This document shows positions 11,582 to 54,669 of a stretch of 64,000 nt of DNA, piece by piece (within the stretch, counting starts at the first letter, position 1; each line of letters opens with the position of its first letter). Source of the stretch: the human T2T-CHM13v2.0 reference genome, Homo sapiens; assembly GCF_009914755.1 (NCBI RefSeq), contig NC_060927.1; one strand, given 5' to 3'. The notes under the pieces are model-generated. The model did not search any database and was not told the DNA's origin. It saw only the letters and a program-made list of their open reading frames with translations. The translations under genes and the position numbers were made by a program.

Positions 11582-11956
11582 TGTCTTAGTTCTGGCTATC
11601 CAAGCAATTACCATACACTGGGTGGCTTAAACAATAGAAAATTATTTCTCACAGTTCTGGAGGCTGGAAAGTCCTATATTAAGGTGCTGACTGATTCAGT
11701 TTCTGATGAGAAAGCTTATCAAGGTGCTGACTGATTCAGTTTCTGATGAGAAAACTTTTTACGTGTGGCCATCTTTTTATTGTATCTTCACATGGTATAG
11801 AGCAGAGAGAGAGAGAAAGCAAGCTCTTTTGTTTCTCTTCTTATAAGAGCATTAATCCCATTCATGAGGGATTCATCTTCCTCATCTAGTTACCTCCCAG
11901 AGGTCTTACTTCCAAGTACCATCACACTGGGGGTCAGGCTTCAACATATGAATTTA

Positions 11957-14591
<2,635 letters not shown>

Positions 14592-51725: not shown

Positions 51726-53122
51726 ACATTCCAGAGTTTTAGACCAATATATGCTCAAACTTCAATATGAGCTTCAATGTATGCTTTATTTTTTCTTAGC
51801 CTACAAATTATTCAATTAAAAAAATACACAAATTTCTACATGATACGTTTGTGAAAAGTAAGCTGTTTCTCTCTGGTTGAAAGTTGTGTTCTACTTTTTA
51901 ATTTAGGAATATTTCATGAGTATTACTGATCCTTAAATGAGAGTAGACTGATTCAGGTCTGCAATTTATCGCTAAAGAATGAAGTTGATTTTTCTTTGGT
52001 CTTTCTTCCCTATTTACTTATTTATCGTAAGAATCCTTCTCTCAGATCTTCAACTAGAGCACTCATTCTATGCACATCCCCTAGTCAAGTTTTTTTTTTT
52101 TTAATCACTTAGGTCTCATGACTGTGATGACTTAGGCAGATACTTTTTATGATATTATAAGGGATATAACTTGAAGTAGCTTGTGCTTGGAATTTCAATG
52201 TATCAGAGAATGAATGTAGAGCAAAATATGTCCCTCTGATTATCTAATAGTTCTTTGAGGCTTAGCACTTTACCTTTGCTAATTTCCCCAAATATGCAAC
52301 TTCACTCATTATTCACTTCCATAATTGCCTAGGTAGCATTTCTAAGATTTACACTTACATATTTCTTGTAGAAGAGAGGCAATAATGGGTTGTAGTGCAG
52401 GGTGAAAAAGACCTAATTACCTGGGAAATTTTGTGAACATTAGTGAAAAGCTTCCCATCAGGTCAACTGGGAAAACATCACTCATTGGATAAAATGATAA
52501 TATGTGAAAGTTGTAAGAGTTTAAATTTTCTACACAACATTGCTTGGGTTTCATCACTTTTGTGCCAGAGCCCACAATTTCAACTTTATTAAATAAAATG
52601 TTCTCAGTGTTCCTGGCATAATTGACTAATATGCCTGTTTTCCTGGGCATTTGAACCTCTGAATCTATGTGTTTTCATAAATATTTTAATGAGATCATAT
52701 GAGAGATTACAAAGCAGGTATTAATAGCATATATTGGAAGCCTCTGTATCCTTTTAAAAATGTTAAAATAAATAAAAAAGCATAAAGAAAATAATATAAA
52801 AGACATAATAATTATTTAGGTTGTAAGAAATAGAAATACACACATCTTACTCAAGAAAAAAACTCTGGTAAATTTTAGGCTTGAAACTTTATTACTGTTA
52901 ACCTTCACTTCATAAGTGTGCTGGAAAGTGCATTATTCAAGCAGTCTGACATAGGTTAACAAGACTTAGTTTTTCTCTAAGCAATGAGAATATCATTTCT
53001 GTTTATCTAAAAAGATAAACTATAAAAGTCGTATAAATTTTAAGGAAAATAGAAATACTCAAAAATTAACAGGATTGATAGAATTTTGCCAGCTATAAAA
53101 CAATAGGATTAAAAAAGGCCTT

Positions 53123-53176
53123 TTTGAATCCGGTGTCTGGTGTCTGAGGGGTTTTGTCCCTGGCTCATCCAGACCA
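53123..53176 (+). mobile_element. U5 end of a HERV-E/LTR2-like LTR
   Basis: aatccggtgtct(ggtgtct)gaggggttttgtccctggctcatcc...ca followed by tttct and the Glu PBS tggttccctgaccgggaa, as in the recalled HERV-E LTR-leader junction. Confidence 0.7.
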
Positions 53177-53181
53177 TTTCT

Positions 53182-53242
53182 TGGTTCCCTGACCGGGAAT
53201 TGAACCCGGGTCGTGGCGGTGAGAGCGCCAAATCCTAACCAC
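53182..53242 (-). tRNA. tRNA-Glu(CTC)-derived sequence, 5'-truncated (~14 nt missing), CCA encoded; not a functional tRNA gene
   Basis: - strand gtggttaggatttggcgctCTCaccgccacgacccgggttcaattcccggtcagggaaCCA; 57/61 match to tRNA-Glu-CTC as recalled, 3 of the 4 mismatches are CpG transitions; anticodon at 53221-53223. Confidence 0.92.
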
Positions 53243-53987
53243 AGGTATAATAATAATAAAAAAAAAAAAGAACAGAATTAACAAAGTTACTAGATAAATA
53301 CACACACACGTGCTCACACAATAAAAAAAAAAGGCCTTAGAGTCTCACATTTCAGAGTTGCAGAAAGGCAGCAAGTTGTTGAAGTTTAATAGGGAGAGCA
53401 TGATTTGGGAAATGAGAAAATATATAATGATGATAAGAAATCTTTACAGAGTGAAGCTGCTTGAACATCTTTCCATAATTTAAAAATAAGACTAGAAATA
53501 TTTTCCTCTGGTTTGTAGTGGTAATAACTTACTGAACTCTGGCCCTCCTATATTGGTGAGATTGGAATGTCAAAACAAATTATATATCATATGGTTTTCA
53601 TTGTCAAGATATAAACAAACACTAAATATTTCTAATTTTGGCATAATCACCCAGTCATGTGTTACAATTTTTTTTTATTTTTGTATAACATCTTCAAAGT
53701 TAACTGTGCCAAAAAAAAGTAATATAAAAGTGAGGGAAAAGTAAAACGTTGCTTTAAATAATAATCACAAAAATAGTACCTTTTGTGTGTGATCTAATTA
53801 CATGGAAATTTTTACAATGGTTAAATACTTAATTCAACTAAAAAGGCAAGTATTCTTAATATTCTTATCATTTTCCCCTAAACCAACCCCAAAAAATTAA
53901 TCTAGAGTAAAATTATAGTAATAAAATGTCTTTAAAACCAGTCACCTGATCTAGATGTAATTGTATCACACTCTGTGGTACAATTTA

Positions 53988-54310
53988 TTTTATTTTATTT
54001 ATTTTATTTTATTTTTTATTTTTTTTTTTAGAGACAGAGTCTCACTCTGTCACCCAGGCTGGAGTGTACAATCTCAGCTCATGGCAACCTCTGCCTCCTG
54101 AGCTGAATGAAGTGATTCTCCTGGCTTAGCCTCCTGAGTAGTTGGGATTACATGCACCCACCAGGACGCCTGGCTAATTTTTGTATTTTTAGTAGAGACG
54201 GGGTTTTGCCAGGTTGGTCAGGCTGGTCTTGAACTCCTGACCTCAGGTGATCCACCCTCCTTGGCCTCCCAAAGTGCTGGGATTACAGGTGTGAGCCACC
54301 GTGACTGGCC
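53988..54310 (-). mobile_element. AluSx/Sz, antisense
   Basis: Full dimer, (TTTTA)n tail; TSD tgtggtacaattta at 53974-53987 and tgtgatacaattta at 54311-54324. Confidence 0.93.
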
Positions 54311-54669
54311 TGTGATACAATTTATTATGATGTTTTTAATCTGGGTAGAGTTTATTTTTATTATTATAATCATAGAGATAGAAAAATATAGATGCTTATA
54401 AATATATATATATTTTGGAGAAACTTAGAGAACTTATATATATATACACATGTTTTTATATATGTATGAATACTCTGCTTAAGGTGATAATTACTTTTTC
54501 TAAGGATACAAATTGCAAATTCTTTTCAGGATATTTTATTAAATCAAATTCACTTTCTCTAAAAGAGAACTTCTTGTGTTATCTTACTTGTATTTGACTA
54601 TGAAGGGAAAGCATTTGTTTTAGGAAGTGATTAAAATCATTATTATCACTAAAATACAAATATAATATT

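What the first reader, a model, noticed from the sequence alone, without database searches (positions are those of the whole stretch)
53111..53270. LTR U5 fused through the PBS to most of its primer tRNA-Glu: fossil reverse-transcription intermediate or proto-SINE
Seen in the sequence: ~55 nt resembling the HERV-E/LTR2 U5 end, then tttct, then the 18-nt Glu PBS (53182-53199). Instead of entering the viral leader, complementarity continues 43 nt further through the T arm, anticodon arm and D arm of tRNA-Glu(CTC) to 53242. An A-rich tract follows (53247-53269). I see no other HERV-E sequence in the window. Established knowledge: RT normally copies only 18 nt of the primer, stopping at m1A58, and encoded CCA marks a mature-tRNA origin. 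Inference: this is an integrated copy of tRNA-primed minus-strand strong-stop DNA, or of plus-strand read-through on an unmodified primer. That is the structure once proposed as an origin for tRNA-derived SINEs. On the - strand it reads tRNA head (intact B box GGTTCAATTCC, damaged A box), U5 body, then a T6 Pol III terminator (53116-53111), a ~130-nt unit antisense to HERV-E U5/PBS.
Basis: partly seen in the sequence, partly recalled or inferred. Interest (0 to 1): 0.8.

Follow-up and report, generated by a model that had tools for sequence, protein, structure and literature searches.

The report
Retrocopied tRNA-Glu plus retroviral U5 fragment
This is a dead 200-base insert, placed by the LINE-1 machinery, that copies a short RNA joining tRNA-Glu to the end of an old retrovirus's repeat; that junction first arose elsewhere, when the retrovirus copied its whole tRNA primer by mistake.

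Summary
Window 53119-53181 matches the U5 end of HERV-E-type LTRs. The 18-nt Glu PBS follows (53182-53199), and tRNA-Glu(CTC) complementarity continues to about 53246, nearly the whole tRNA with a 9-nt gap.

It is not a singleton, and it is probably not a primary reverse-transcription product:
- Nine loci in this genome carry LTR, PBS and the complete 75-nt tRNA-Glu complement fused into gag. A 9-nt microhomology marks the junction, and about 0.6 kb of leader and gag start is missing. The primer read-through therefore happened once, in the founder of a proviral lineage.
- An exact 21-nt U5/PBS signature ties the window copy to that lineage.
- The window piece lies inside a 204-nt insert (53123-53326) with LINE-1 hallmarks: a 12-bp target-site duplication, a TT/AAAAAA nick site and an A tail.
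- The insert also holds a 58-nt piece of an unrelated old LINE-1 sequence in the opposite sense, as twin priming would produce.

Two further solitary copies on chr2 lie within the same bounds (tRNA 5' end to the LTR's A-run). One is listed in print as a tRNA-Glu/LTR2C/L1PA5 chimera.

The likely template is an antisense, Pol III-type tRNA-Glu-CCA-antiU5 RNA. This part is inferred. The locus is inert.

The parts
53111..53122 (+). 5' copy of the 12-bp target-site duplication AAAAAAGGCCTT. It is preceded by TT (53109-53110), giving a LINE-1 endonuclease-type TT/AAAAAA site.
   Evidence: repeat D3: 12 of 12 bases identical to 53327-53338; only 2 of 269 A>=5 runs in the window are followed by GGCCTT, and they are these two. 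Only 11 exact 12-mer repeats with 50-400 nt spacing occur in the 64 kb.
53119..53181 (+). U5 end of an LTR2C-type (HERV-E group) LTR, in ERV sense. Its first 4 nt (CCTT) overlap the duplication, a microhomology. It holds a 7-nt tandem duplication at 53132-53145.
   Evidence: best local scores against L068 (51/63) and L067 (48/61); the 21-mer 53168-53188 occurs exactly at only one other place in the genome, the chr2:96.06 Mb provirus. The name LTR2C comes from the RepeatMasker annotation of the sister locus in Table S3 of PMC13174262.
53182..53199 (+). 18-nt primer-binding site complementary to the 3' end of tRNA-Glu, including CCA.
   Evidence: Identical or nearly so to the PBS of canonical copies (16-18 of 18).
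53200..53246 (+). Continuation of the tRNA-Glu(CTC) complement through the T arm, anticodon arm and D arm to about nt 2 of the tRNA. There is a 9-nt gap between 53242 and 53243.
   Evidence: alignment with tRNA-Glu-like genomic copies L009 and L012; 54 of 58 bases identical to L012.
53182..53247 (-). tRNA-Glu(CTC) pseudogene as read on the minus strand (RefSeq TRE-CTC12-1). The D arm/A-box region is damaged by the gap, and CCA is encoded.
   Evidence: ARAGORN. Rfam tRNA 23.1 bits against a gathering score of 29.
53247..53269 (+). A-rich tract (ATAATAATAATA followed by an A run) between the two pieces of the insert. Its origin is open.
   Evidence: In one search the alignment to the chrX locus is only weak here.
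53265..53322 (+). 58-nt piece 93% identical to chrX:117381681-738, an old LINE-1 ORF2-like region, sense on the plus strand. It is followed by an A run.
   Evidence: 2 candidates, 2 scored, and chrX is the only other match; the window flanks do not match that chrX locus. The ORF2 likeness is recalled from the translation and was not tested against a library.
53323..53338 (+). A4 tail remnant (53323-53326) plus the 3' copy of the target-site duplication (53327-53338).

Best explanation
Step 1, elsewhere and earlier. An LTR2C-type HERV-E-group retrovirus copied its entire tRNA-Glu primer during plus-strand strong-stop synthesis. The extended 3' end then landed on a 9-nt match (CACCAGGGA) in gag instead of on the PBS. 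The result was a proviral lineage that reads LTR-PBS-whole tRNA complement-gag and lacks about 0.6 kb of leader and gag start.

Step 2. On the antisense strand of such proviruses lies a complete tRNA-Glu gene, then CCA, about 70 nt of antisense U5, and the T-run that is the complement of the LTR's AATAAA+A-run. A short RNA with these bounds was picked up by the LINE-1 machinery at least three times. A Pol III transcript of about 150 nt is the likely form of this RNA; this is inferred.

Step 3, at this locus. LINE-1 endonuclease nicked the minus strand at TTTTTT/AA, and that end primed on a polyadenylated RNA carrying an old-L1 piece (53265-53322 plus A tail). The staggered plus-strand end (...GGCCTT-3') primed by 4-nt pairing on the tRNA-sense RNA at AAGG and copied it to its 5' end. 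This left U5-PBS-anti-tRNA on the plus strand (53123-53246). Joining of the two cDNAs produced a 204-nt insert flanked by a 12-bp duplication.

The insert is an inert pseudogene. What is shown: the family, the junction microhomology, the duplication, and the bounds of the three copies. What is inferred: the polymerase and the order of priming.
For: The proviral family:
- Nine loci cover the whole 301-nt LTR-tRNA-internal probe (41 rows from 40 of 645 candidates scored, 41 rows from 40 of 830 candidates scored).
- Five of five canonical relatives have the internal block 682-694 nt after the PBS and read ...CACCAGGGAAAC... 48 nt before that block. The extended copies have the block 123 nt after the PBS (7 of 9 printed; L069 was seen; L064 was checked only by identity).
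- The deleted stretch includes the gag start; a canonical copy gives Gag_MA and Gag_p30 matches.

Link between the window and the family:
- The exact 21-mer 53168-53188 occurs only in the window and in the chr2:96.06 Mb provirus. The nine 2-mismatch hits are all unrelated sequence, and the reversed control gave 6 hits.
- The window also shares TTTTTGAAT with L068; L067 reads TTTTTAAAT.

LINE-1 marks:
- A 12/12 duplication and a TT/AAAAAA site. Only 2 of 269 A-runs are followed by GGCCTT.
- An A tail.

The bounds of the unit:
- chr2:205.84 Mb runs from the A-run to 3-5 nt past the tRNA 5' end. It is fused to an L1 3'-end-like piece plus A-rich tail, inside a split Alu with a 12-13-nt duplication.
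- chr2:11.58 Mb lies wholly inside the unit, has no tail and has a 10-nt duplication.
- The pattern scan found 43 matches. Nine have the tRNA-type continuation: 6 proviral, 2 solo, and the window.

A DNA-encoded template for the chr2:205.84 Mb copy:
- It carries the family's own change at tRNA position 1 plus gag-derived flank (CCAGGGGAAC) and the subfamily's C-to-A change in the tRNA part.

Print:
- Table S3 of PMC13174262 lists tRNA-Glu:1-75(+)/LTR2C:439-501(-)/L1PA5 at hg38 chr2:205.35 Mb.
- The same paper reports that tRNA pieces in L1 chimeras are mostly antisense to the L1 and proposes twin priming (passages).
Against: - Pol III transcription of the unit was not observed. Only one of three copies ends at the T-run.
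- ARAGORN finds a tRNA in only 1 of 9 present-day proviral copies, so promoter integrity at the time of retroposition is assumed.
- The window copy's tRNA part carries no family-specific change, and its tRNA 5' end is too damaged to show a leader. A cellular tRNA primer joined to antisense U5 DNA is therefore not excluded for this copy.
- The U5 identity of the window to family members (79-83%) is no higher than to some canonical LTRs (L029, 86% local). The link rests on the 21-mer signature.
- The A-rich tract 53247-53269 is not accounted for.
- The 58-nt partner is an internal old-L1 piece, not an active L1 3' end.
- The near-palindrome 53106-53131 (I6) is unexplained.
- No empty site from another primate could be examined.
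Confidence: 0.68

Rival explanations
1. A tRNA-primed minus-strand strong-stop DNA, or a plus-strand read-through product, of a replicating HERV-E was captured directly into the chromosome at this site. The locus would then be a primary fossil of a reverse-transcription intermediate.
For: - The encoded CCA, U5 directly joined to the PBS, and the long tRNA complement are all present.
- The window's tRNA part is 54/58 identical to a genomic tRNA-Glu-like copy and shows no family-specific change.
- LINE-1 reverse transcriptase could in principle copy a tRNA-DNA hybrid by the same priming.
Against: - The same U5-PBS-tRNA join is encoded in nine proviral loci, and the window shares an exact 21-nt signature with one of them.
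- None of the three solitary copies carries R sequence beyond the A-run, which strong-stop DNA must have.
- The sister copy on chr2 carries provirus-specific bases at and beyond tRNA position 1.
- The 12-bp duplication, TT/AAAAAA site and A tail are LINE-1 marks, not integrase marks.
Confidence: 0.12
2. An ERV-sense Pol II transcript of the extended lineage was 5'-truncated and retrocopied by LINE-1, with 53247-53269 as its A tail. The chrX-like piece would then have been added by a template switch or by a later insertion into that tail.
For: - The plus strand reads U5-PBS-anti-tRNA followed directly by an A-rich run.
- The whole insert is in plus orientation relative to the duplication and the A tail.
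- Microhomology at 5' junctions is also usual for plain 5'-truncated retrocopies (recalled).
Against: - The proviral copies have no A-rich stretch after the tRNA complement on which LINE-1 could prime.
- The end of the copy coincides with the tRNA 5' end. That is the natural end of a tRNA-sense template, not of an ERV-sense RNA.
- The two other solitary copies also lie within the tRNA-to-A-run bounds, and one of them is fused in tRNA sense to an L1 3' end.
Confidence: 0.12
3. A remnant of a full provirus of the extended lineage that was reduced to about 125 nt by later deletions.
For: The sequence belongs to that lineage.
Against: - An exact 12-bp duplication hugs the insert.
- No other ERV sequence lies in the 64 kb.
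- Both ends fall at the same landmarks as in two independent copies.
Confidence: 0.04
4. An ordinary tRNA-Glu retropseudogene whose flank resembles an LTR end by chance.
For: RefSeq lists it simply as a tRNA pseudogene.
Against: Matches of 101-128 nt spanning U5, PBS and tRNA part have E-values of 7e-26 to 7.5e-13 against 7 loci.
Confidence: 0.01

Closest known systems
tRNA/LINE-1 chimeric insertions (Cell Genomics 2026, PMC13174262; passages and Table S3 were read)
   Same: A tRNA piece lies antisense to an L1-type piece inside one target-site duplication, and twin priming is the proposed mechanism. The chr2 sister copy appears to be one of the 21 rows, listed as tRNA-Glu + LTR2C + L1PA5. That equivalence is inferred from its structure; no liftover was done.
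   Different: In that paper most tRNA pieces are halves (nt 1-37) of free tRNAs. Here the tRNA is near full length and carries CCA plus 60-70 nt of antisense retroviral U5. The partner in the window is a 58-nt internal piece of an old L1, not an L1 3' end. The window locus is not in that table. In the passages I saw, the main text does not discuss the LTR2C tail.
Tailless retropseudogenes of tRNAs and other small RNAs (Schmitz 2004, seen only as cited in PMC3747384; Noll 2015, PMC5322556, abstract and passages)
   Same: These are 3'-truncated copies of a Pol III-type RNA that lack an A tail at the RNA's own 3' end and are flanked by duplications. Priming is by likeness between the target and an internal stretch of the RNA. 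The chr2:11.58 Mb copy fits this fully, and the window's U5-side junction fits it (4-nt overlap).
   Different: The template is a composite tRNA-retrovirus RNA. The window insert also carries a second, polyadenylated piece.
tRNA sequences captured into retroviral DNA in culture. These are Colicelli & Goff 1986 (tRNA between the LTRs of circular MLV DNA) and hairpin-induced tRNA-mediated recombination in HIV-1 (Konstantinova 2006). Both are known to me only as described in PMC12220202. Related is the m1A58 stop of plus-strand strong-stop DNA (PMC8599865).
   Same: Reverse transcriptase copies most or all of a tRNA into viral DNA. PMC8599865 states that read-through past positions 58 and 54 gives a plus strand that no longer matches after transfer.
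   Different: Those are laboratory molecules or short-lived variants. Here the product became a germ-line proviral lineage now at nine loci, rescued by a 9-nt match in gag.
Strong-stop DNA model for the origin of tRNA-derived SINEs (Ohshima et al. 1993; only the title was seen, in a reference list; the paper is not held; the content is recalled)
   Same: The unit is a tRNA head joined through CCA to antisense U5.
   Different: No R region is present. The join is encoded in proviruses and was most likely re-expressed from DNA. Only three copies exist, and no LINE-derived tail is shared among them.
LTR retrotransposons that carry small-RNA genes: Cassandra, Helenus and Ajax (PMC10886601, abstract and passages)
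   Same: An LTR element carries a tRNA-like Pol III-type gene.
   Different: In those elements the tRNA-like part sits inside the LTR in non-autonomous TRIMs. Here it sits after the PBS, is the primer tRNA itself in antisense, and lies in a gag-truncated gammaretrovirus-like provirus.

Membership tests
HERV-E group / LTR2C-type ERV fragment | PBS complementary to the 3' 18 nt of tRNA-Glu | tested here: met
   53182-53199. That HERV-E uses tRNA-Glu is stated in PMC4379568.
HERV-E group / LTR2C-type ERV fragment | Flank homologous to the 3' end of LTRs that precede gammaretrovirus-type gag | tested here: met
   Canonical relatives carry Gag_MA and Gag_p30. The family name LTR2C was not tested against Dfam or Repbase; it is taken from the RepeatMasker label of the sister locus.
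LINE-1-mediated insertion (target-primed reverse transcription) | Target-site duplication of 7-20 bp flanking the insert | tested here: met
   12 of 12 bases, 53111-53122 = 53327-53338. Rarity shown.
LINE-1-mediated insertion (target-primed reverse transcription) | Endonuclease-type nick site TT/AAAA and an A tail before the 3' duplication | tested here: met
   TT at 53109-53110 before the A6 run, and an A run at 53323-53332. The consensus site is recalled (Jurka 1997, listed in the references of PMC3747384).
LINE-1-mediated insertion (target-primed reverse transcription) | Empty site in species that diverged before the insertion | not testable with these tools
   No other primate genome is held.
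Twin-priming chimera | Two pieces in opposite sense within one duplication, with microhomology at the internally primed junction | tested here: met
   tRNA-sense lies on the minus strand and the L1-like piece plus A tail on the plus strand. CCTT overlaps at 53119-53122. The filler at 53247-53269 is not explained.
Minus-strand strong-stop DNA copy | tRNA + antisense U5 + antisense R up to the cap site | tested here: not met
   None of the 3 solitary copies holds LTR sequence beyond the A-run.
Functional tRNA gene | Cloverleaf above curated score, intact A and B boxes, no encoded CCA | tested here: not met
   Rfam 23.1 bits against 29. There is a 9-nt gap in the D arm and CCA is encoded.
SINE | Pol III head plus a body amplified to many copies by a partner LINE | tested here: not met
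   Three solitary copies were found. These scans are lower bounds: 40 candidates were scored per DNA search, and the pattern allowed at most 3 mismatches.
Pol III transcription unit (antisense of the proviruses) | Internal tRNA promoter, first T>=4 run downstream as terminator, and an RNA of matching length | tested here: inconclusive
   The full tRNA and a T5-T8 run about 70 nt after CCA are present in the copies printed. One solitary copy ends exactly at that run and starts 3-5 nt before the tRNA. The RNA itself and polymerase occupancy cannot be tested here.

The most novel reading that the evidence does not exclude
A germ-line retroviral lineage was founded by complete read-through of its tRNA-Glu primer, rescued by a 9-nt match in gag. 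It thereby acquired a whole tRNA gene on its antisense strand. That gene, with the LTR's poly(A)-signal complement as terminator, made a tRNA-Glu-CCA-antiU5 Pol III RNA. LINE-1 then retroposed this RNA at least three times, by three different routes: a template switch, a tailless insertion and twin priming. This would be a natural, arrested instance of how a tRNA-headed, retrovirus-tailed SINE could be born. It resembles the old strong-stop model, but the route runs through a provirus rather than through a free intermediate.
Probability: 0.35. Interest if true: 0.65.

Novelty: new variant of a known kind. Interest (0 to 1): 0.45.

Why it matters
For this locus, very little: it is an inert 200-bp retrocopy annotated as a tRNA pseudogene.

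The wider picture it led to has some value:
- It gives a fixed, datable genomic record that a retroviral reverse transcriptase can copy an entire primer tRNA and still yield an integrated, heritable provirus. Cell-culture work (PMC8599865) treats that outcome as a dead end.
- It shows that such a provirus offers a ready tRNA-type transcription unit whose product LINE-1 can move.
- It explains why tRNA-Glu 'pseudogenes' sit next to LTR2C ends in annotation.
- It explains an odd tRNA+LTR2C+L1PA5 row in a published chimera catalogue.

It does not show an active element or any function.

Tried and rejected
- The idea that the target site is itself the same old L1 region as the 58-nt piece (a long duplication or homology-driven event) was rejected. 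Relaxed BLAST of window 52000-54500 against the chrX locus found only the 58-nt match plus Alu-to-Alu hits.
- U5 percent identity does not separate family members from canonical LTRs (69-86% for all). I relied on the 21-nt signature instead.
- The marks GGGG and TGCTCC, which I first took as family-specific, also occur in the canonical copy L029. They are not used as evidence.
- ARAGORN on the 11 related loci found a tRNA in only one, L062. Rfam reached the gathering score only in L062 and L092.
- Independence of the nine proviral loci was only partly resolved. The four chr8 copies stay 88-92% alike to the locus edge and are probably segmental duplicates. Others lose collinearity 0.86-1.4 kb upstream, but tandem repeats in U3 blur the LTR start.
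- Searches for a printed description of the extended lineage found none. These searches cover open-access full text only; Repbase, Dfam and Repbase Reports could not be consulted.
- Ohshima 1993 is not held.
Full report
**The observation.**
On the plus strand the window reads as follows:
- TT, then AAAAAAGGCCTT (53111-53122);
- LTR-like sequence to 53181;
- the 18-nt tRNA-Glu PBS (53182-53199);
- further tRNA-Glu complement to about 53246;
- an A-rich tract (53247-53269);
- 58 nt of other sequence;
- an A run, and then AAAAAAGGCCTT again (53327-53338).

ARAGORN calls tRNA-Glu(ctc) at 53182-53247 on the minus strand. Rfam's tRNA model gives 23.1 bits, below its 29-bit gathering score. Aligned with tRNA-Glu-like genomic copies, the complement is nearly full length, with a 9-nt gap between 53242 and 53243.

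**Not a singleton.**
The window's own assembly could be searched. With 53111-53345 as query, 40 of 203 candidates were scored. The 40 rows were:
- 1 self match;
- 7 rows spanning U5 + PBS + tRNA part;
- 4 rows spanning U5 + PBS only (canonical LTR-leader junctions);
- 27 rows covering the tRNA part only (taken as tRNA-Glu genes; not checked with a tRNA finder);
- 1 chrX row matching 53265-53322.

Probes of 301 nt from two of the seven loci recovered nine loci that carry LTR end, PBS, the whole 75-nt tRNA-Glu complement and a shared internal sequence. These are chr2:71.06, 96.06 and 159.34 Mb, chr3:128.42 Mb, chr13:40.67 Mb, and chr8:6.82, 7.80, 7.83 and 12.98 Mb (41 rows from 40 of 645 candidates scored, 41 rows from 40 of 830 candidates scored). 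The four chr8 copies stay 88-92% alike to the edge of the fetched loci and are probably segmental duplicates. The others lose collinearity 0.86-1.4 kb upstream of the PBS. The number of independent integrations was not settled.

**How the lineage arose.**
In five of five canonical relatives the PBS is followed by a normal leader. A conserved internal block lies 682-694 nt after the PBS, and 48 nt before that block they read ...CACCAGGGAAAC.... That region is the N-terminal part of gag: a canonical copy gives Gag_MA and Gag_p30 matches.

In the extended copies the block lies 123 nt after the PBS (18 + 57 + 48). The tRNA complement, which ends ...CACCAGGGA in the genomic tRNA-Glu-like copies, runs straight into ...AACTTAG... 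of gag. All copies share this same junction, so the event happened once.

The simplest reading, which is inferred, has three steps:
- Plus-strand strong-stop DNA read through the whole primer tRNA.
- Its 3' end paired with the 9-nt match in minus-strand gag DNA rather than at the PBS.
- The resulting provirus lost about 0.6 kb of leader and the gag start.

Cell-culture work says read-through past tRNA positions 58 and 54 yields a plus strand that no longer matches after transfer and cannot be integrated (PMC8599865, passages). Here a chance match rescued it.

**Solitary units.**
Besides the window there are two solitary copies.

(i) chr2:205.84 Mb.
- It lies inside an Alu that it splits, with Rfam SRP hits on both sides.
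- A 12-13-nt duplication flanks an L1 3'-end-like piece with an A-rich tail. That piece is 87% identical to window 11953-12068.
- The L1 piece is fused, in the same sense as the tRNA, to tRNA-CCA-antiU5.
- The unit starts 3-5 nt before the tRNA and ends at the A-run of the LTR's AATAAA region.
- Its tRNA part carries the family's own change at position 1 with gag-derived flank, and the subfamily's C-to-A change. Its template was therefore read from a provirus, not built on a cellular tRNA.
- Table S3 of PMC13174262 lists tRNA-Glu-GAG:1-75(+), LTR2C:439-501 of 501(-) and L1PA5 at hg38 chr2:205354230-474. The build is the same, so I take it to be this locus. No liftover was done.

(ii) chr2:11.58 Mb.
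- It is 100 nt long and lies wholly inside the unit.
- It has no tail and a perfect 10-nt duplication.

A pattern scan across the U5/PBS/T-arm join (at most 3 mismatches) gave 43 matches and 0 in the reversed control.
- Nine continue as tRNA: 6 proviral copies, these 2 solitary copies and the window.
- The other 34 continue with leader-type strings. I inspected only four of them (L029, L093, L094, L096).

None of the three solitary copies has LTR sequence beyond the A-run or proviral sequence more than 5 nt beyond the tRNA.

**The window insert.**
- The 12-mer AAAAAAGGCCTT flanks 53123-53326 exactly.
- Only 2 of 269 A>=5 runs in the window are followed by GGCCTT, and they are these two. Only 11 exact 12-mer repeats with 50-400 nt spacing exist in the 64 kb.
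- TT precedes the 5' copy, which gives a LINE-1-type site, and an A run precedes the 3' copy.
- The ERV piece overlaps the 5' copy by CCTT. This is genuine U5 sequence in L067 and L068.
- The 58-nt piece 53265-53322 has a single other match, chrX:117381681-738 at 93% (2 of 2 candidates scored). That chrX site lies in sequence whose translation looks like old L1 ORF2. This is my recollection of the motif and was not tested against a library.
- The window's flanks do not match that chrX locus.

These features fit twin priming:
- The minus-strand T-run primed on a polyadenylated RNA.
- The plus-strand ...CCTT end primed on the tRNA-sense RNA at AAGG and ran to its 5' end.

PMC13174262 reports that tRNA pieces in L1 chimeras are mostly antisense and proposes this mechanism.

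**Link to the lineage.**
- Percent identity of the 63-nt U5 does not discriminate.
- The 21-mer 53168-53188 is found exactly only in the window and in the chr2:96.06 Mb provirus.
- The nine 2-mismatch hits are unrelated sequence, against 6 hits for the reversed control.
- A 30-mer with up to 3 mismatches hit only the window.

**What remains open.**
- The polymerase was not shown.
- The A-rich filler is unexplained.
- There is a near-palindrome at 53106-53131. The target is 12/13 like the RNA's own sequence next to the priming site (I6).
- The date of the insertion is unknown.
- It is unclear how a lineage without leader and gag start spread.
- It is unknown whether Repbase or Dfam already hold this form.
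- My literature searches found no description. They cover open full text only.
- I read the spreadsheet supplement mmc3 of PMC13174262 in parts 1 and 2 of 3. I did not read its other supplements, nor those of PMC5322556, which may list the chr2:11.58 Mb copy.

**Verdict.**
The locus is an ordinary dead retrocopy of an unusual template.

Noticed in passing
L061-L069 (chr2:71.06, 96.06 and 159.34 Mb; chr3:128.42 Mb; chr13:40.67 Mb; chr8:6.82, 7.80, 7.83 and 12.98 Mb): A proviral lineage reads LTR-PBS-complete tRNA-Glu complement-gag. The junction lies at a 9-nt match (CACCAGGGA), and about 0.6 kb of leader and gag start is missing. Two sequence subfamilies exist.
   Followed up: partly
L061-L069, upstream of the PBS: LTRs of this lineage are alike for 0.86-1.4 kb upstream of the PBS but match canonical LTRs for only about 360 nt. 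Many off-diagonal hits indicate tandem repeats in U3.
   Followed up: partly
window 53106-53131: A near-palindrome with 14-nt arms, 93% complementary. It is formed by target DNA on the left and genuine U5 on the right. The tRNA-sense RNA would therefore be 12/13 identical to the plus-strand target beside its priming site. It may be chance, or a sign that site choice depends on RNA-target pairing.
   Followed up: no
L092 (chr2:11584662-761, minus strand): A tailless 100-nt copy with a perfect 10-nt duplication, TGAGTAGGAT. The target resembles the U5 stretch just beyond the copy's end.
   Followed up: partly
window 53132-53145: A 7-nt tandem duplication (GGTGTCT twice) inside the U5 piece. It is absent from all related copies aligned.
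   Followed up: no
L008 (chrX:117381681-738): The only other genomic match of the 58-nt partner piece. It contains a CA-rich stretch shared with the window. A GATAAA hexamer lies 24 nt before the point where the window copy turns into an A run, so it may be a weak poly(A) site.
   Followed up: no
window 11953-12068: Matches, at 87% over 116 nt, the L1 3'-end-like piece of the chr2 chimera. It lies at the start of a masked repeat block.
   Followed up: no
chr1:160.58-160.73 Mb of the assembly (rows): About two dozen tRNA-Glu-like matches are spaced about 7.4 kb apart, which suggests a tandem tRNA gene array.
   Followed up: no
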